From Mytilus trossulus (lineage: Eukaryota), in the NCBI RefSeq assembly GCF_036588685.1, contig NC_086386.1:48608001-48672000 (forward strand): a stretch of DNA of 64,000 nucleotides, written 5' to 3'. How positions within the stretch are numbered: position 1 is the first letter of the stretch; the number at the start of each line of letters is the position of its first letter. Made by a program: the position numbers and the translations under genes. Of this stretch, positions 6,085 to 43,932 are shown in pieces. The notes beneath the pieces were generated by a model that saw only the letters and a program-made list of their open reading frames with translations, ran no database searches and was not told where the DNA came from.

Positions 6085-6855
6085 TGATAAAATTAACTGT
6101 TTGCAATAGCATAATTTGTTCTAAATAATGAGGATGTTCTTATCCCAAGCAGAAAAACATAGCCGTATTTGACACAACCTTTTTCAACTTTTGATATTCA
6201 GTGCTGTACAACTTTTTCACTTTCGATCTTTTATATCTGGGCGTCACTGGTGAGTCTTGTGTGGACGAGGCGCAATTTTGGCGTATTGAATTTGAGACCT
6301 GATGCCTTTTGTTATCTTTTAATCATGTATTTCTTTGTCCAAAACGTTCTCCTATTTATATGTATTGTTGTCCTGTAATATTATGTTGTCATTTCAATTT
6401 TATATTATATAACATTGCCATTAAGGAGCGAGATTTGACATGCCACAAAATCAGGTTCAACCCACCATTTTTTCTATAAAAATGTCCTGTACCAAGTCAG
6501 GAATATGACCATTGTTATATTGTAGTTCGTTTCTGTGTGTGTTACATTTTAACGTTGAGTCGTTTGTTTTTTTTCTTATTATTTTTGAGTGTAAATTCAC
6601 ATTGCGATAAGACTTGTAACGGTACTTGTCTATCCCAAATTCATGTATTTGGTTTTGATGTTATATTTGTTATTCTCGTGGGATTTTGTCTGATGGTTGG
6701 TCCGTTTCTGTGTGTGTTACTTTTAAGCGTTGTGTCGTTGTGTTCCTCTTATATTTAATGCGATTCCCTCGGTTTTAGTTTGTTACCCCGTTCTTGTTTT
6801 TTGTCCATGGATTTATGAGTTTTGAACAGCGGTATACTACTGTTGCCTTTATTTG
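6085..6855 (+). mobile_element. Composite non-autonomous repeat: degenerate hammerhead (retrozyme) segment plus a Penelope-like 3' segment
   Basis: 6241-6285 is a mutated hammerhead (CTGGTGA...GAGG). 6585-6695 aligns by eye with 22715-22822 downstream of the Penelope RT. A similar composite lies at 23630-24262. Confidence 0.65.
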
Positions 6856-8650: not shown

Positions 8651-8659
8651 ATAAAACTT

Positions 8660-9385
8660 ATTAAAGGTGCCAGGCTTTAATTTGATACGCTAAACGCGCG
8701 TTTCGTCTATATAAGACCCATGTGTGACTCTCAGATCAAAATAGTTAGAAAGCAAAATAAGTTGAAGAACATTGAGCTAAGGACACAGGCACTTGTCTCA
8801 GAAAAATAATTTCCTATATACCTTATTATAACACAAGGTACTTAACTTGCATTTTAGAAAAATGTTAGGTGTTGACGAAGTTCCGTTATATGTCGCTTTA
8901 TAGGCTGTCAACCCCACTAAAGCTTGTTACATCGTAAATCTAAATTGATTTATCTATATAATGGTGTATAACATGCCTACATTTGTTTTCGGAATCATCC
9001 GTAGCAATCCTACCAAAGTATGTCAATCGTAATAATTTTGCAAACCGCTGAAGAATTTCTAAAATGCAAGTTAAGTACCTTGTGTTATAATAAGGTATAT
9101 AGGAATTTTTTTTTTCTGAGACAAGTGCCTGTGGCTGAGGACCCAAAATTCCAAAATGTTGTGCCAAATATGGCTGGGGTAATATATGCCTAGGATAATT
9201 TTTCAGAGAATTCCGATTAATTCATACTTTTGCAATCAGTTAATTTATTAAAATTATAACTGATATTCATGTCAACACCGAAGTGTTGAATACTGAACTG
9301 GCAGTACCATCGGGGACGAAACGTCTACCAGCAGCGGCATCGATCCAGTGATGTGAATTGTTATCAAAGATACCAGGCTTATAGT
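8660..9385 (-). mobile_element. Retrozyme-family repeat (inverted), degenerate hammerhead, interrupted by a MITE
   Basis: Reverse complement matches 18060-18480. The hammerhead at about 8686-8730 has CACATGG in place of CTGATGA. Confidence 0.7.
8784..9133. mobile_element. MITE with about 75-bp TIRs (CACAGG...CCTGTG) and 8-bp TSD; P-element-like or hAT-like
   Basis: TIR cacaggcacttgtctcagaaaaa...ccttattataacacaaggtacttaacttgcattttagaaa is mirrored at the right end. TSD gctaagga (8776-8783) / gctgagga (9134-9141). Confidence 0.85.
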
Positions 9386-10209
9386 TCAGTATTGTTCTAT
9401 GATAATATTTTGTGATCTTGTCTTTCATTTTTCTATAATTAATATTAATTATATCATTTTTTTATATACATATGACGTAGCTCTGTACTTGTACATACTG
9501 TCATTGTTCTATGATAAAAAAAAAATCTTGTCTTTCATGTTTTTCTATGTGCATTGTCTACTAGTATATGCCTTTTATTTTTCTTTGATACATATGACAT
9601 TGCTCTGTGCTTATACATCCCGTCATTATGTTATTGTACTACTGTACATTTTAGTATTCTTGTCTTTCATTTTTATTAATGTGCTTTGTGTCTATTTTTG
9701 TGTTTCTTTCTTACATATTTGATTGTTTTATAGATTAAGATTATAACACAATGTTGACTAATATATCCCTATTTTTTACATTTTTTTCCTATTATGTCTG
9801 TTTCTTTGATCACACATCGTTGCCAATATAATGGAATTTGATGCGACAAATTTAGCTAGCTATTAAACCAGGTTTAATCTAACCTTTTCTATATAAGAAA
9901 CCTGTACCAAGACATAAATATGACAGTTGTTTGATGTGTATGAGCTTTTGATTTTGCCATTTGATTAAGGACTTTCCGTTTTAAATTTTTCTCGGAATTT
10001 TAGTATTTTTGTAATTTTACTTTATTATAAGCCAAACGCTCGTTTCTTCTACATAAAAACTGCAGCTGCCGCCATTATACTTGATAACAAAACATATGAC
10101 ATGGCTCTGTGCTTATAATTAACCGAGTTACTTCGTATAAAGAACTTTACATAGCTGGATCAAATTTTGACTACTATTCTATGAACAGTAAACGATGACT
10201 TTCAAAGTA

Positions 10210-13616: not shown

Positions 13617-14298
13617 ATATAATCTATTGATCCAAGAGGACGAGAGCAAGATAATCTTTTGATCCAAGAGAACGTGCAAGAGGAATACAATAAACGGATC
13701 CAAGAGGACGAGAGGAATATAATCTATTTATCCAAGAGGACCAGAGCATTATAATTTTTTGATCCAAGAGAACAAGAGGAATATCATATATGGAGACAAG
13801 AGAACAAGAGGAATATTATGTATGGATCCAAGAGAACAAGAGAACAAGAGGAATATTATATACGGATCCAAGAGAACAAGAGGAAAATTATATATGGATC
13901 CAAGAGGACAAGAGGAATATAATCTATTGATTCAAGAGGACGAATAAAATAATCTATTGATCCAAGAGAACAAGAGAACAAGAGGAATATTATATATATG
14001 GATCCAATATAACAAGAGAACAAGAGGAATATTATATATGGACCCAGGAGAACAAGAGGAAAATTATATATGGATCCAAGAGGACAAGAGGAATATAATC
14101 TAATGATTCAAAAGGACGATTAAAATAACCTATTGATCCAAGAGAACAAGAGAACAAGAGGAATATGATATATTGATCCAATAGGACGAGATGAATATAA
14201 CCTATTGATCTAAGAAGACGCGTGTATTACAATCTATTGACATAAGAGGACGAAAAGCACATTATTTTTTTATCCAAGAGAACAAGAGGAATATTATA
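13617..14298. repeat. Minisatellite, about 31-32-bp unit (gatccaagagaacaagaggaatattatatatg), roughly 20 degenerate copies
   Basis: Recurring gatccaagag(g/a)ac motif with internal agaacaag duplications. Confidence 0.9.
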
Positions 14299-14488
14299 CC
14301 TCAGGCATAGATTACGTTAGAGGTATTTGGGAAAACTTTTAGGAATTTTGGTCTTCAATGCTCTTCTACTTCGTACTTAATTTGGCCTTTTTAACTTTCG
14401 AGCGTCACTGATGAGTCTTTTGTAGACGAAACGCGCGTCTGGCGTATATACAAAATTTAGTCCTGGTATCTATGAGGAGTTTATTTAT
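14299..14488 (+). mobile_element. Partial retrozyme-family repeat
   Basis: Matches 18297-18480. Confidence 0.75.
14402..14445 (+). ncRNA. Type I hammerhead ribozyme (minimal, palindromic stem III)
   Basis: Stem I gcgtca/tggcgt; CTGATGA 14408-14414; stem II gtct/agac; GAAA 14428-14431; cgcgcg; predicted cleavage after GTC at 14439. Confidence 0.85.
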
Positions 14489-18057: not shown

Positions 18058-18482
18058 TACTGAGTCTTATCTAGACGAAACGCGCGTCTGGCGTAATTTT
18101 TTTTAATCCTGGTACTTTTAATAACTATTTTCACCAATGGGTTGAAGCCACTGCTGGTGGACGTTTCGTCCCCAAGGGTATCACCAGCCCAGTAGTCAAC
18201 ACTCCGATGTTGACATGAATATCAATAATGTGGTCATTTTATAAATTTCCATTTAACAAAACTTTGATTTGTTTTGAAAAAATAAGAATTTTCTTATCCC
18301 AGGCATAGATTACCCTAGCAGTATTTGGCACAACTTTTTGTATTTTGGGTCCTCAATGTTCTTCAACTTTGTACTTGTTTGGATTTATAAATATTTTGAT
18401 ATGAGCGTCACTGATGAGTCTTGTGTAGACGAAACGCGCGTCTGGCGTACTAAATTATAATCCTGGTACTTTTGATAACTAA
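18058..18482 (+). mobile_element. Retrozyme-like unit bounded by two direct hammerhead repeats (354 nt between cleavage sites)
   Basis: gacgaaacgcgcgtctggcgta followed by a near-identical ...tcctggtactttt.ataacta occurs twice, with cleavage sites at 18088 and 18442. The upstream copy lacks part of CTGATGA. Confidence 0.8.
18405..18448 (+). ncRNA. Type I hammerhead ribozyme, intact core
   Basis: gcgtca CTGATGA gtct tgtgt agac GAAA cgcgcg TC tggcgt. Confidence 0.85.
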
Positions 18483-18789: not shown

Positions 18790-19640
18790 TTAAAGTTTAA
18801 CATTTATATGACAGTTTGTTTGTATAGTCTGTATGTACGGAGTTTGTTTCCGTTTAATACACCACGGTCGTTGAAATTGTCTTCACACCATTGATAATCG
18901 TCCAAATGTTCTTGATTTTCATTAATTATTGTGTGCATGGATAAAAATGTGTCACGTATAAGTCCACATACATCAAGTTTAGTCACAAGTTTGTTGACTT
19001 CGAATGTCCAACTTTTTCGTCGTCGCGCCGCCCAACGCCAAACTTTACTTAGGGGTCGATTGTTTTCAAGTCTGTGAAGTTTGCACAATAGCCGAAGACA
19101 CGATTTCTGCAGTTTAATTTTGCATGATGTCCAACCCATGTCAACTGTTGTGGATAGATTTGAAGTAAGTTTTCCAACATTCAGAAAGAATTTACATACT
19201 TGAGTTTGAACGGATGAGATGCAACTATAGTCCTTATATCCCCAAACACCACTTCCGTATAGAAGAATTTTGGGTCCTCAATGCTCTTCAACTTTGTATT
19301 TATTTGGCTTTTTCAACTATTTTGATATGAGCGTCACTGATGAGTCTTATGTAGACGAAACACGCGTCTGGCGTATAAAATTATAATCTTGGTACTTTTG
19401 ATAACTTTCTACCATTGTTTTGTATAACTTAAAATAAATACGGAAAGGGTCATACCTCCAGCTGTTATTACTTTTCCGCATAATGCACTAAGAGCACGGC
19501 TGGTGGCTTTAGATAGTTCTTTTACATTTTTCTGGAATGTTTAAAACTGTTCATCCGACCTTACACCAAGGTTTTTGTATGAGTCGGTAAGAAGTGAAGT
19601 ATGTCCACCACATGTAAACGTACTTTGCGAAATGTCTATC
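18790..19640 (-). pseudogene. Decayed CR1/L2-group LINE ORF2 C-terminal fragment, interrupted by a retrozyme fragment
   Basis: The minus strand reads ...MVE/ILLYGSGVWG...MGWTSCKIK...NKLRTYRLYK, homologous to the 21355-22080 ORF (MVKPILLYGSEVWG...NYRLFK). Confidence 0.7.
19331..19374 (+). ncRNA. Type I hammerhead ribozyme (core intact, stem III palindrome broken by one change) within a retrozyme fragment at about 19269-19407
   Basis: gcgtca CTGATGA gtct tatgt agac GAAA cacgcg TC tggcgt. Confidence 0.75.
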
Positions 19641-19849
19641 GAAGGTGGTCGGAAGTGAACTATCTTCGTCTTCTTATCGGTTTATCGACAATATCCAAGC
19701 TTCGCACTATTCAGTTACAATATCAAGCATTTTCTGTAAACAGGGTTCATTCGGCGCAAGTAGTACGATGTCATCTGCGTACAGCAATATACTCATTTGG
19801 CAGTCGTCTTCTTGGTACTCCACACAATTAAAGGCGTTAATATATATCG

Positions 19850-21298
19850 AGAAAAAATATAGTGACAAAATACATCACTGTTTTACGGATGTTGCGGATG
19901 CTTTGTATTCTTTGCATGAAAAATATGTCGTTGTTCCAGCAGATAAAGCCTCCAATAATATTGACTTCATATGTAAAAACCATTATTTGCAATGTCCAAC
20001 AACAGAGATTGGAATAAATAGAACTACTGGTAATCCTACATATTTTTTAACCTCATTTACCAAGGAATAAATTTTACAAAATCAAAAATCTGTCCTTTTT
20101 TCTTTTGGTAATAACATTACAGAAAACGAAGAAAATTCACCATCCATCATTATACTGGAAAGCAAAACTATACAAAACTCCATATAAAAAACGACACAAA
20201 GCTGGATCATCAAAAAGTTCGACTAAACATCTTTCTAAAATACTGACTTCGATACTTTTTACAGTTAAAGATGGAGTTAAAAATTATTGTGATAAGATAT
20301 ATTCTACAAGGGGTGTTTACCGAATGTGGATTCTCAAAAATTCGAAAACTTCAACCACAATCTTTGCAATTTTGCAGCAACATAAAGACTTTTTATTTTT
20401 CTACGCTGTACACTACTATTCCCCATGCTCAGTTGAAAGCTCGACTTCATGATCTCATTAAACAGAGCTTTTTCTATCAAAAAAAGAATCGTAGATACAA
20501 ATTTCTTGTTTTTGGTTACATTAATTCAAATTTTGTGAAGAACTACACTGAATCTACCAGAAAATATACTGAAGATGATATTATCAAAATGCTGGACTTT
20601 TTGATCGATAATATATTTGTTGAGTTTGGAGGATTCATATTTCAACAGACAGTCGGTATTCTTCTTCTTCTTCCAGGTTAGGAACCGAATTCAATATTTG
20701 AATGAATGAGTATTCCGATGGGTACTAATTGTGCAACCCTACTGGCCATTTTTTTGTTGTACTTGTATGAAGCAGAATTCATTCAGAACCTTCTAAAAGA
20801 CAAAAAGAAAAAGCACCTTGCGAAATTCTTTAATTTTACTTTTTGATGTATTGATGATGTCCTATCATTGAATAACCAATACTTACATCTCATATATCCC
20901 AGTAAACTTGAAATAAAGGACACTACTGATACTAAAGGGACTTCTTCATACCTTGATATTTTTCTCAATATTGACACAGAAGGATGACTTCACACAAAAA
21001 TCTCTGATAACGGGACGATTTCAACTTCCTAATTATCAATTTCCCATTTCTAAGTAGAAACAGACCCTCTGCCCCTTCGAATGGTGTTTACATTTCTCAA
21101 TTGATACATTATTCTCGAGCATGCTCACACTATACGGAGTTTATCTACACTGTCAGGAGTCAGTGTGTTTCTAACGCAGAAACAAAGTTATGAGGAGGAC
21201 AGATTAAAAATGACACTCCGCCAATTTTACTGACACCATCACTAACTGGTTGATCCAAACGATGCGTCTTTGTTCAAACTAACTAAGGATATTTTTAT
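19850..21298 (+). mobile_element. Penelope-like retroelement RT (frameshifted and with stops); no C-terminal GIY-YIG, so possibly Naiad-type
   Basis: VVPADKASNN, PSLYWxxKLYKTPY, FSTLYTTIPH, LIDNIFVEFGGFIFQQTVGI/PMGTNCA, CIDDV, GVYISQLIHYSRACS. The element resumes at 22631 after a LINE insertion. Confidence 0.85.
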
Positions 21299-22630
21299 TT
21301 GGAGAGTACTGTAATATATGGAGACTGAAGGTTAATGTTAACAAAACCAAAGTCATGGTGTTTTCCAGGGGAAGGCCTTGTACAGATTTGAAATTTTCCT
21401 TAAATGGGGCAGATATAGATATAGTTCATGAATTTAACTATCTTGGTATATTATTTAGTAGGACCGGCAATTTTAGTAAAGCAATAAAAAAGCAAGCAGA
21501 GAAGGCAACAAAAGCAATGTATGAGGTTTTAAAAAGAGGTCGCATTCATAATTTAGCTATTGAATGTCAAGTAGAACTGTTTAATAAAATGGTAAAGCCC
21601 ATTCTTTTGTATGGCTCAGAAGTATGGGGATTTTGTAAAAATATTCAATGTATTGAAAGAGTACAATTACGATTTTGTAAATTGTTACTTAAGTTAAAAT
21701 CATCCACCCCAAACTATATGATTTATGGTGAACTTGGCATTTTTCCTATTCAACTAGATATCAAACTAAAAATGATTGCATTTTGGACAAGACTTTTATC
21801 TGGAAAGGATTCAAAACTGTCTTATTTATCTTATCAATTATTATACAAATTGTCGGTCGACAATCATTTTGAATCGCCATGGTTAAAGTTTTTAAGAAAC
21901 GTTTTTAACGATACTGGCTTTTCCTATATTTGGACAACTCAGCTTTTTCCAAGCGCAGATTGGCTTATCCCTTCGATAAAGATGCGCCTACATGATCAAT
22001 TTAGACAAGAATGGCATTCACTTATGTTAAATTCACCAAAATCTATAAATTATAGATTATTTAAGGAGACATTAAAATGATTTCAGTTTGAAAGTTTTTT
22101 AAATATATTGGAAGATAAAGATATCTATACGCTGTGTAAGTTTAGAACCACAAATCATAGACTTCCTATAGAAACAGGACGGTGGAATGGTATAGAAAGG
22201 GAAAATAGAAAATGTTTGAAATGTAATAACAACTGTATTGGTGATGAATATCATTATATTCTGGAATGTAAATTATTTGAAAATGACAGAAAAAAACTAA
22301 TTGATAAAAATTTGTGGCAAAGGCCAAATATTTTGAAATTCAAAGAAGTAATGAGTTGTAATAATAGGTCTAAATTAGAAAAACTATGTAGATTTATACG
22401 CCAAATAAATAAATCATTTGTTCTCTAGGCAATAACATAACCCCTATTTTGTATATTCTGTACATACTGATACATGTGCATGTGTGTATTTAACGATAGT
22501 TAGTGTATGTTTGTGTGTATGTATGTTTGTGTATAAGATGTTATTATAAATAAGTTTGTTTTCATTGCTATATGTATGTATATCTCTGTACCGTTGTACC
22601 TTATGGTTTATGAGAATAAAGATTATATAT
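21299..22630 (+). mobile_element. 5'-truncated CR1/L2-group LINE (ORF2 C-terminal part plus 3' UTR) inserted into the Penelope element
   Basis: YCNIWRLKVNVNKTKVMVF...YLG...KPILLYGSEVWG...LCKFRTTNHRLPIETGRW...CLKC...DEYHYILEC; break near 22080; AATAAA and a short tail at about 22615-22630. Confidence 0.85.
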
Positions 22631-23550: not shown

Positions 23551-23629
23551 TTGTTTTATGTAATGTATCCGTTTTTATTCTGTAGTTAGTTACCACTTCA
23601 GTTTTATCATGTGTATTTACTATTTAGTC

Positions 23630-24262
23630 ATTTTATAAAATTTACTGTTTGAAAAAGTATGAATTATTCCAAATGATTTTATCCCAGGCAGAAAACCTTA
23701 TAGTCGTATTGGTCACAATTTTTTTGGAACTTTTGGTCTTCAGCTAGTGCTCTTCAGCTTTGTACTTGGTTTGGCTTTCGAACTTTTTTCATCTGAGCGT
23801 CACTTGTTAGTCTTGTGTGATCTTGTGTGGACGAAACGCACGTCTGGCGTATTAAATTTTAAACTTGATACCTTTTGTTAGCTATTATATGTGTTTCTCT
23901 GTCCTATATTTTATCCCATTTATTTGTATTGTAATCCTGTCATGTAATTATGTCATTTTAATTATATATAATGTTATATTTAACATTGCGATTAAAAGCG
24001 GGAGGTTTGGCATGCCACACAACCAGGTTCAACCCACCATTTAAAAAAAAATGTCCTGTTTGTACCAAGTCAGGAAAATGGCCATTATTATATTCTTGTT
24101 CGTTTCTGTGTGTGTTACATTTTAATGTTGTGTTTCTGTTGTCGAAGTTTTCCTCGTATGTTTGATGCGTTTCTCTCAGTTTTATTTTGTAACCCGGATT
24201 TGGTTTTTTTCTCAATCGATTTATGAATTTCGAACAGCGGTATACTACTGTTGCCTTAATTT
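23630..24262 (+). mobile_element. Composite repeat with degenerate hammerhead (paralog of 6085-6855)
   Basis: gagcgtcacttgttagtc...gacgaaacgcacgtctggcgt followed by the aatgtcctgt...aagtcagg...gaacagcggtatactactgttgcctt module. Confidence 0.7.
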
Positions 24263-42446: not shown

Positions 42447-43932
42447 TTTTGAAATAATAGATTTTTGTTTTACTGCCCTTCAGTTGTAGGTTCAATGGAG
42501 CACTGTTCTAGCTCTGTTTGGTTTCGGTAGCGTTGGAGCTTATAGTTTTGAAATAATAGATTTTTGTTTTACTGCCCTTCAGTTGTAGGTTCAATGGAGC
42601 ACTGTTCTAGCTCTGTTTGGACTTGGTAGCGTTGGAGCTTATAGTTTTGAAATAATAGATTTTTGTTTTACTGCCCTTCAGTTGTAGGTTCAATGGAGCA
42701 CTGTTCTAGCTCTGTTTGGTTTTGGTAGCGTTGGAGCTTATAGTTTTGAAATAATAGATTTTTGTTTTACTGCCCTTCAGTTGTAGGTTCAATGGAGCAC
42801 TGTTCTAGCTCTGTTTGGTTTTGGTAGCGTTGGAGCTTATAGTTTTGAAATAATAGATTTTTGTTTTACTGCCCTTCAGTTGTAGGTTCAATGGAGCACT
42901 GTTCTAGCTCTGTTTGGTTTTGGTAGCGTTGGAGCTTATAGTTTTGAAATAATAGATTTTTGTTTTACTTCCCTTCAGTTGTAGGTTCAATGGAGCACTG
43001 TGCTAGCTCTGTTTGGTATCGGAAGTATTGGAGCTTATAGTTTTGAAATAATAGATTTTTGTTTTACTGCCCTTCAGTTGTAGGTTCAATGGAGCACTGT
43101 GCTAGCTCTGTTTGGTATCAGTAGCGTTGGAGCTTATAGTTTTGAAATAATAGATTTTTGTTTTACTGCCCTTCAGTTGTAGGTTCAATGGAGCACTGTG
43201 CTAGCTCTGTTTGGTATCGGAAGTATTGGAGCTTATAGTTTTGAAATAATAGATTTTTGTTTTACTGCCCTTCAGTTGTAGGTTCAATGGAGCACTGTGC
43301 TAGCTCTGTTTGGTATCGGTAGCATTGGAGCTTATAGTTTTGAAATAATAGATTTTTGTTTTACTGCCCTTCAGTTGTAGGTTCAATGGAGCACTGTGCT
43401 AGCTCTGTTTGGTATCGGAAGTATTGGAGCTTATAGTTTTGAAATAATAGATTTTTGTTTTACTGCCCTTCAGTTGTAGGTTCAATGGAGCACTGTTCTA
43501 ACTCTGTTTGGTATCGGTAGCGTTGGAGCTTATAGTTTTGAAATAATAGATTATTGTTTTACTGCCCTTCAGTTGTAGGTTCAATGGAGCACTGTTCTAA
43601 CTCTGTTTGGTATCGGTAGCGTTGGAGCTTATAGATTTGAAATAATAGATTATTGTTTTACTGCCCTTCAGTTGTAGGTTCAATGGAGCACTGTTCTAAC
43701 TCTGTTTGGTATCGGTAGCGTTGGAGCTTATAGATTTGAAATAATAGATTATTGTTTTACTGCCCTTCAGTTGTAGGTTCAATGGAGCACGGTTCTAACT
43801 CTGTTTGGTATCGGTAGCGTTGGAGCTTATAGATTTGAAATAATAGATTATTGTTTTACTGCCCTTCAGTTGTAGGTTCAATGGAGCACTGTGCTAGCTC
43901 TGTTTGGTATCGGTAGCGTTGGAGCTTATAGT
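42447..43932 (+). repeat. 15 x 99-bp tandem array; each unit is acceptor + 37/43-nt exon + donor region
   Basis: Exact 99-bp period: exon starts run from 42484 to 43870 (14 x 99). Unit ...tttttgttttactgcccttcag|TTGTAGGTTCAATGGAGCACTGT(T/G)CTA(G/A)CTCTGTTTG|gtatcg|gtagcg. Confidence 0.95.
43870..43906 (+). CDS. Internal coding exon (last array copy): (V)VGSMEHCASSVW; alternative donor extends it to 43912 (+YR)
   Basis: Phase 1 in and phase 2 out; links MSEKIQFQTKEYA to DAYQTRQ... without a stop. Confidence 0.5.

What the first reader, a model, noticed from the sequence alone, without database searches (positions are those of the whole stretch)
18058..18482. Retrozyme unit: two tandem hammerhead ribozymes 354 nt apart
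Seen: direct repeats with the full type I hammerhead topology, a palindromic ACGCGCGT stem III, and cleavage sites at 18088 and 18442. Established: minimal type I hammerheads with palindromic stem III are typical of Penelope-like elements and non-LTR retrozymes, cleave mainly as dimers and yield small circular RNAs; such retrozymes have been reported in mussels. Inference: this is a genomic template or remnant of a roughly 354-nt circRNA. The upstream core is damaged (CTGA-GTC), so this copy may cleave only once.
Basis: partly seen in the sequence, partly recalled or inferred. Interest (0 to 1): 0.7.

Follow-up and report, generated by a model that had tools for sequence, protein, structure and literature searches.

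The report
Mussel retrozyme uses Naiad start signal
This is one aged, front-truncated copy of a known mussel repeat that carries a self-cutting RNA motif; its copies stop just before a predicted RNA stem-loop that also begins Naiad jumping genes, which likely names the enzyme that spreads the repeat and the spot where copying starts.

Summary
The 354-nt spacing and the downstream type I hammerhead are real (Rfam Hammerhead_1, E 8e-6). The upstream one is only its 3' half: the insertion is 5'-truncated inside the core. The copy belongs to a family of thousands that fits the published mussel non-LTR retrozymes (PMC7229834). That part is known.

What I did not find in print: copies end about 40 nt past the cut site, 3-9 nt before a 58-nt stem-loop (47 of 52 ends). 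The same stem-loop, with compensatory changes, begins three Naiad Penelope-like retrotransposon families here, whose copies end in the same register (73 of 83). It was absent from 10 of 10 canonical Penelope loci and opens published Naiads of oysters, hemichordates and a fish. Naiad reverse transcriptase therefore likely docks there and starts internally on a circular or multimeric RNA. This is untested biochemically.

This scan already noted the same link on other DNA (16 notes, 8 shown); I saw them only after my own tests. This copy is probably inactive.

The parts
18058..18128 (+). Upstream terminal repeat: 5'-truncated hammerhead (stem II, GAAA, palindrome 18080-18087, site C18088) plus the ~40-nt tail
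   Evidence: Sequence; 88% to the downstream repeat; Rfam model 12-39 only; family similarity starts at 18058-18061
18089..18442 (+). One 354-nt retrozyme unit (family R1), cut site to cut site; predicted circRNA monomer
   Evidence: Units of 353-357 nt in other loci; 90-91% to best other copies; longest stop-free stretch when circularised 60 aa
18136..18193 (+). Naiad-type stem-loop (predicted RT docking element): P1, P2 and an inner hairpin around a conserved CTGCTGGTGG...CCCCGAG core; this copy has substitutions that break two pairs
   Evidence: 46 of 58 positions identical to Naiad-C in this copy, 51 of 58 in a younger copy
18195..18221 (+). Small hairpin followed by CATGAA; Naiad ORFs start at a similar ATGAA just after the stem-loop (possible relic of the captured Naiad 5' end; inferred)
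18405..18448 (+). Intact type I hammerhead: stem I 18405-18410/18443-18448, core 18411-18417, stem II 18418-18421/18427-18430, palindrome 18434-18441, cut after C18442
   Evidence: Rfam RF00163 E 8.2e-6; 43 of 44 identical to a young copy
18443..18482 (+). Tail up to the family's fixed 3' end (+39 to +42 after the cut site), the inferred start point of reverse transcription
   Evidence: loose read ends at the same place
19265..19410 (+). Separate 5'-truncated R1 copy with a hammerhead (stem III changed to ACACGCGT) and the same 3' end

Best explanation
This is an old, 5'-truncated 1.2-unit insertion of a mussel hammerhead retrozyme whose 3' end lies just before a stem-loop shared with Naiad Penelope-like retrotransposons, so it was likely copied by Naiad reverse transcriptase starting inside the RNA. 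Steps: (1) Tandem copies are transcribed in the ribozyme sense (family-level RNA reads, shown). (2) Hammerheads cut out ~354-nt monomers that a host ligase closes into circles (shown for mussel retrozymes in PMC7229834; inferred for this family). (3) The Naiad GIY-YIG/RT protein binds the stem-loop at +47 to +105 of the unit, nicks host DNA and starts cDNA about 5-7 nt 5' of it (inferred from mapped ends and from the PAc precedent in PMC11167929). (4) It reads through tail, cut site and ribozyme into the next round and falls off at a random point, which gives fixed 3' ends, random 5' ends and lengths from tens of bases to many units (pattern shown). Because the signal lies 3' of the start point, only a circle or an uncut multimer can pass on a complete unit. 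This copy went once round and stopped in the second hammerhead core, then decayed.
For: Fixed 3' ends 3-9 nt before helix P1 among terminated copies: R1 47 of 52, R2 29 of 37, R3 12 of 13, Naiad-A 50 of 58, Naiad-B 11 of 11, Naiad-C 12 of 14. The distance from the cut site differs by family (about +40, +45, +33), so the end follows the stem-loop, not the ribozyme. 124 of 125 hammerhead contexts continue past the cut site. 5' ends are spread over unit positions 38-329. Incidental copies agree: 13 of 16 at 85% identity or more end at +35 to +45. Retrozyme versus Naiad-C: 78.5% over 79 nt, E 2.9e-12; 51 of 58 within the structure. The same predicted fold appears in R1, R2, Naiad-B and Naiad-C; 98.6% of cells paired, 7 of 23 pairs with changes on both sides, 0 of 500 shuffles as high, slid controls 37-54%. 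Between R1 and R3 the element keeps 51 of 59 positions against 118 of 211 in the middle of the unit. The helpers are Naiads with open ORFs of about 1000 aa and an N-terminal GIY-YIG; the family A protein closely resembles Naiad_Mgal. The motif opens 11 named Naiad consensus sequences, plus one unnamed in the excerpt, of 54 listed in the supplement of PMC8557442. 0 of 10 canonical PLE loci carry it. RNA run X24: 6188 of 8.7 million records laid, about 5:1 towards the ribozyme strand over the stem-loop, 599 loose ends at +41 to +43; the Naiad-C 3' end shows little strand bias and its depth falls from about 670 to about 34 at the junction.
Against: No binding or priming experiment exists; the link rests on sequence, predicted fold and mapped ends. 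The covariation test used 6 related sequences and a structure taken from their own folds. Many loci were fetched with queries that included the tail, which biases against copies ending at the cut site; only the 16 copies are near-unbiased, and 2 of them lie in this window. 24 of 185 ends fall outside the 3-9 nt range. The canonical-PLE control covers 10 loci from about 4 families among 615 GIY-YIG candidates, and BLAST also missed Naiad-A there because of its inserted hairpin. A whole-unit local alignment to Naiad-A was not above shuffles: homology is confined to the short element. The RNA reads show no pile-up at the cut site and cannot tell circles from multimers; the run may be of another species, and its strandedness is assumed. 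The window's own unit does not fold unusually well as a circle (z -1.2) and does not form the stem-loop in that fold. I could not compare the sequence with the published Mg353 clones (supplement unreadable).
Confidence: 0.78

Rival explanations
1. Same Naiad helper, but the template is an uncut linear multimer from tandem arrays; the ribozyme and the circles are by-products and not transposition intermediates.
For: Arrays of up to about 23 kb exist. PAc inserts without hammerhead cleavage in vitro (PMC11167929, parts 1-2 of 4). Insertions cross the cut site, and reads across the unit junction fit multimers as well as circles.
Against: Circles are the main form in mussel tissue (linear under 5% in one set of extracts, up to 10-25% in others; PMC7229834). 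Units within an array share private variants (for example all three units of L002, and those of L025 and L028), as expected from one circle, though local duplication gives the same pattern. The hammerhead is kept with compensatory changes across R1-R3.
Confidence: 0.4
2. The stem-loop is a relic of descent from a Naiad 5' end, or acts as an internal promoter or stability element, and another RT (a hammerhead-bearing canonical Penelope or a LINE) now mobilises the retrozyme.
For: In Xenopus, retrozymes resemble pLTRs of annotated PLEs (bioRxiv 10.64898/2026.07.22.740005, parts 1-3 of 5). Canonical PLEs with open ORFs are present here, and one carries its own hammerhead-like motif.
Against: Three retrozyme families with different tails all end in the Naiad register. 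The canonical PLE loci tested show neither the element nor this hammerhead as part of the element. Copies end in a short T-rich stretch of the unit with no added poly(A).
Confidence: 0.15
3. The internal element is a second, minus-strand hammerhead or an anti-ribozyme lock, as in ambisense viroid-like RNAs that replicate RNA to RNA.
For: In R1 the minus strand reads CTGGTGA...GACGAAACGTC, close to a hammerhead core.
Against: The core has A6 changed to G in the units aligned. The look-alike hairpin differs in R2, R3 and all Naiads while its pairing is kept. Predicted circle folds of young units keep the stem-loop local and do not pair it with the ribozyme.
Confidence: 0.04
4. A satellite spread by DNA-level recombination, with no reverse transcription.
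For: Long arrays exist; no target-site duplications were found.
Against: Thousands of dispersed copies with one fixed end and one random end are the mark of reverse transcription. DNA-level expansion may still explain the longest arrays.
Confidence: 0.03

Closest known systems
Mytilus galloprovincialis non-LTR retrozymes (Cervera and de la Pena 2020, PMC7229834, parts 2-4 of 6 read; review PMC7761336, passages)
   Same: Type I hammerhead in 350-390 bp tandem repeats, thousands of copies, low GC, no LTR; a 353-nt monomer was used in their assays.
   Different: They named PLEs only as candidate helpers because of shared hammerheads; the review says the repeats show no conserved motif pointing to the helper. 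Here a conserved structured motif and a fixed 3' end point to Naiads. Three families are seen (354, 363, 350 nt; 64-81% alike). Sequence identity with their clones was not tested.
Naiad clade of Penelope-like elements (Craig et al. 2021, PMC8557442; section 6, passages and supplement searches)
   Same: 5' truncation, partial tandems, fixed 3' end; the stem-loop is at the start of their consensus sequences.
   Different: The retrozyme has no ORF and has a hammerhead, which Naiads lack. The paper does not describe this RNA structure. It reports non-autonomous elements for Chlamys, with similarity at their 3' ends, not for Naiads.
Internal initiation by the Poseidon element PAc (Frangieh et al. 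2024, PMC11167929, parts 1-2 of 4)
   Same: RT starts inside the RNA, and genomic 3' ends mark the start sites.
   Different: PAc is a canonical autonomous PLE with its own hammerhead and two start sites; here one site is seen, 5' of the stem-loop, on a non-autonomous RNA.
Vertebrate retrozymes as PLE derivatives (bioRxiv 10.64898/2026.07.22.740005, parts 1-3 of 5)
   Same: Retrozymes are linked to PLEs by sequence at PLE termini.
   Different: It covers vertebrates, three insects and a coral, no molluscs; Naiads were found only in the coral; no RT signal or 3'-end mapping is given.

Membership tests
Metazoan non-LTR retrozyme | Type I hammerhead in each unit | tested here: met
   RF00163 E 8.2e-6, just below the gathering score; intact in most units
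Metazoan non-LTR retrozyme | Tandem units of 150-450 bp, many copies, GC under 50% | tested here: met
   353-357 nt units, arrays of 1 to many units, 6417 first-look candidates, 40 scored
Metazoan non-LTR retrozyme | No protein coding | tested here: met
   Longest stop-free stretch 60 aa in the circularised unit
Metazoan non-LTR retrozyme | Expressed as RNA | tested here: met
   Family level only: 6188 reads, biased to the ribozyme strand, one run; this copy not tested
Metazoan non-LTR retrozyme | Self-cleavage and circular RNA | not testable with these tools
   Shown for mussel retrozymes in PMC7229834; reads cannot separate circles from multimers
Metazoan non-LTR retrozyme | Target-site duplications (optional, longer than 4 bp when present) | tested here: inconclusive
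   0 of 21 loci with a shared word of 7 nt or more; mean 5.0 against 4.85 for mismatched flanks; 2 rows took a wrong 3' flank
Published Mg353 family | Sequence identity with the published clones | not testable with these tools
   Supplement unreadable; PMC4918200 supplement shows only a figure label
Minimal PLE hammerhead (min-HHR) | Long helix II (7-8 bp), short helix I, helix III reduced to the core | tested here: not met
   Helix I 6 bp, II 4 bp, III 2 bp plus loop (definition)
Naiad (helper elements L061, L168) | GIY-YIG N-terminal to RT, CxC and DKA motifs, 3.4-4.4 kb tandem units | tested here: met
   GIY-YIG at aa 183-273 of 1056; L168 weak GIY-YIG at 130-167 and RT at 640-849; motifs visible in the translations; units 4277 and 3370 bp
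Non-autonomous partner of Naiad | Shared 3'-end register and shared cis element | tested here: met
Non-autonomous partner of Naiad | Naiad RT copies the RNA in trans | not testable with these tools
   Needs an in vitro TPRT assay
Plant-type LTR retrozyme | LTRs with type III hammerhead, fixed 5' end, 4-bp TSD | tested here: not met
   Type I ribozyme and random 5' ends
Ambisense viroid-like RNA | Intact ribozymes on both strands | tested here: not met
   Minus-strand look-alike has a broken core and is not conserved

The most novel reading that the evidence does not exclude
Mussel retrozymes are chimeras: the RT-docking stem-loop of a ribozyme-free Naiad fused to a hammerhead. Circularisation puts the signal, which lies 3' of the start point and is otherwise lost from a single insertion, back on every monomer, so Naiad RT copies the circle by rolling-circle reverse transcription. 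The stem-loop would be an undescribed RT-recognition RNA conserved among Naiads of bivalves, hemichordates and a fish.
Probability: 0.5. Interest if true: 0.8.

Novelty: new variant of a known kind. Interest (0 to 1): 0.62.

Why it matters
Which reverse transcriptase spreads animal retrozymes, and whether their circles are true templates, is left open in the papers read. This names a candidate enzyme with intact ORFs in the same genome, a 58-nt RNA signal and a start point to within a few bases, so both questions become one in vitro assay. It runs against the expectation that the helper shares the ribozyme: Naiads have none. It also gives a first candidate RNA recognition element for Naiads, and explains why elements that start copying 5' of their own signal need tandem or circular templates. 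The copy at this locus is ordinary.

Tried and rejected
Rfam at gathering level: no hit in the window; the hammerhead appears only at E-value level. The 305-393 end points first looked like a fixed 5' end (LTR-like); the loci show random 5' ends, so this was dropped as an artefact of the listing. Minus-strand hammerhead: rejected. The tail match in Naiad-A loci L039, L040 and L044 first looked like a shared tail; it is a 27-nt retrozyme insertion in that subfamily. Target-site duplications: none above background. Whole-unit alignment to Naiad-A: not above shuffles. The genome search with the Naiad-C 3' end returned nothing, probably because very common words are skipped; its ends were mapped in loci already held and in reads. 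No RNA holder was listed as RNA on record by the run search; the one raw-read run was laid instead. No pile-up of read ends at the cut site; a fragmented library is not expected to show one. Ten ORFs near the locus gave no Pfam hit over its cut-off, so the gene context is unknown. Literature searches: retrozyme+Mytilus+hammerhead (5 papers), retrozyme+Naiad (2 works), retrozyme+Penelope+non-autonomous+mussel, Naiad+Penelope-like+non-autonomous, retrozyme+reverse transcriptase+initiation site+circular RNA+Penelope from 2021. None of the texts read reports the shared element; subscription journals are not searched, and the supplements of PMC7229834 and of the 2026 preprint could not be seen and may bear on this. 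Look-up of earlier notes by sequence gave nothing. I did not search exhaustively for a Naiad family closer than family C.

Full report
Observation. The window is about 32% GC and lies in a 1.3-Gb genome; likeness to published elements points to a mytilid mussel (inference). Two repeats, 88% alike over 67 nt, put GUC sites at C18088 and C18442, 354 nt apart. The downstream hammerhead, 18405-18448, is complete and matches Rfam Hammerhead_1 at E 8.2e-6 (32.6 bits, gathering score 34). The upstream one matches only model positions 12-39. It has no intact core and no 5' strand of stem I, because the insertion begins at 18058-18061. By the definition in PMC4209133 (passages) the ribozyme is canonical, not minimal.

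Family. A search of the genome gave 6417 first-look candidates, of which 40 were scored; the best other copies are 90-91% identical. In 26 non-overlapping loci of the 30 fetched, units measure 353-357 nt (one of 338) and arrays run from one to ten or more units; one array spans about 23 kb. Two sister families occur, R2 (about 363 nt) and R3 (about 350 nt), 81% and 65% alike to R1. This fits the mussel retrozymes of PMC7229834: about 5000 hammerheads in two families, 350-390 bp repeats, cleavage at about 0.1 per min, abundant circles, RtcB ligation of a 353-nt monomer. I could not compare sequences with their clones. In one raw RNA run, 6188 of 8.7 million records lie on a unit, about 5:1 towards the ribozyme strand over the internal element and about 2:1 near the ribozyme. 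This copy's own expression was not tested.

Polarity. 5' ends fall anywhere from unit position 38 to 329; all 25 arrays that could be seen to their end stop at about +39 to +42 after the cut site. Among copies met by chance in other loci and in the window, 13 of 16 at 85% identity or more end at +35 to +45; the other three break off internally. 124 of 125 hammerhead contexts continue past the cut site. So a cleaved linear monomer copied from its 3' end is not the template: copying starts inside the unit and runs across the cut site. No target-site duplications stood above background in 21 loci.

Helper. GIY-YIG hits led to canonical PLEs and to Naiads, which have the endonuclease N-terminal to the RT. 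At the ORF start of three Naiad families lies a segment like unit positions 37-115: 78.5% over 79 nt for family C, E 2.9e-12. R1, R2, Naiad-B and Naiad-C fold into the same predicted stem-loop; Naiad-A adds a hairpin inside it. On six sequences, 98.6% of cells pair and 7 of 23 pairs change on both sides; no shuffle of 500 reaches this, and slid controls give 37-54% (small, related set, structure taken from these folds). The element is the best-kept part of the unit between R1 and R3: 51 of 59 positions, against 118 of 211 in the middle, 21 of 41 in the tail and 30 of 44 in the ribozyme. Terminated copies end 3-9 nt before helix P1 in R1 47 of 52, R2 29 of 37, R3 12 of 13, Naiad-A 50 of 58, Naiad-B 11 of 11 and Naiad-C 12 of 14. 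All 50 Naiad-A loci read directly end at the T-run before the element (two loci are the same place). RNA depth on Naiad-C falls from about 670 to about 34 at this junction. Ten canonical PLE loci lack the element. An exact-word search of the supplement of PMC8557442 finds it at the start of 11 named Naiad consensus sequences of 54 listed, from mussels, oysters, an ark clam, two hemichordates and a toadfish, plus one unnamed in the excerpt; line breaks may hide more. The paper does not discuss it.

Mechanism. PMC11167929 shows that a Penelope-like RT starts inside its RNA, that genomic 3' ends mark the start sites, and that hammerhead cleavage is not needed. I infer that Naiad protein binds the stem-loop and starts about 5-7 nt 5' of it. 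The signal is then not copied first; it is reached only by going on into the next unit. A Naiad needs a tandem transcript for that, a retrozyme a multimer or a circle. This copy is 1.2 units long, has one signal and ends in the second hammerhead core. Its two repeats differ at 8 of 67 positions and its stem-loop has two broken pairs, so it is old and probably inactive as a donor. If transcribed, it could still be cut twice through the double-hammerhead fold (prediction). Shown here: anatomy, polarity, shared element, shared register, family-level RNA. Taken from papers: cleavage and circles. Inferred: binding, priming and the form of the template.

Rivals. A multimer template instead of a circle stays open (0.4, given the Naiad helper). 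Another RT with a relic element is less likely (0.15), since three families with different tails keep the Naiad register. A minus-strand ribozyme was tested and rejected.

Novelty. The retrozyme family is known. A 2026 preprint ties Xenopus retrozymes to PLE termini but covers no molluscs and no RT signal. The review PMC7761336 states that no motif points to the helper. My searches found no report of the Naiad link. This scan has noted it before on other DNA of this and at least one other genome (16 notes, 8 shown, unchecked AI notes). My reading was recorded before I saw them, and they are not counted as evidence. Verdict: an ordinary copy of a known family with a likely new mechanism; interest 0.62.

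Noticed in passing
window 6113-6317 (+), 8658-8776 (-), 9136-9390 (-), 14287-14480 (+), 19265-19410 (+), 23587-23886 (+): Six more retrozyme-related fragments in 64 kb; 14287-14480 is family R2 with an intact hammerhead core at 14408.
   Followed up: partly
L039, L040, L044 550-576: A 27-nt retrozyme tail is inserted in the pLTR of a Naiad-A subfamily and has been spread with it.
   Followed up: partly
L161 68-315 and 4828-5075; L162-L164: A degenerate retrozyme passenger in the 3' region of a Naiad-B subfamily; several A-to-G changes in its hammerhead, cause not tested.
   Followed up: partly
L073 about 100 nt after the ORF end; L050: A hammerhead-like motif with long stem II in a canonical PLE family, unrelated to the retrozyme's.
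   Followed up: no
L261 (G000:C10 near 2903620), L055:3192: Another hammerhead type, resembling R3's core, with a different palindrome and no Naiad stem-loop seen right after it.
   Followed up: partly
G000:C7 17.183-17.206 Mb; G000:C65 3.064-3.070 Mb: Long tandem arrays of 355-356-nt units; the C7 array still ends at the family's 3' end.
   Followed up: partly
window 42447-43932: 15 copies of a 99-nt tandem repeat, 97% alike; possibly coding, not examined.
   Followed up: no
window 19618-22428 (+): Cluster of stop-free stretches of 115-265 aa with no Pfam hit over cut-off.
   Followed up: partly
L188 613-665: A further variant of the stem-loop with a longer inner hairpin in an old R2-like copy.
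   Followed up: no
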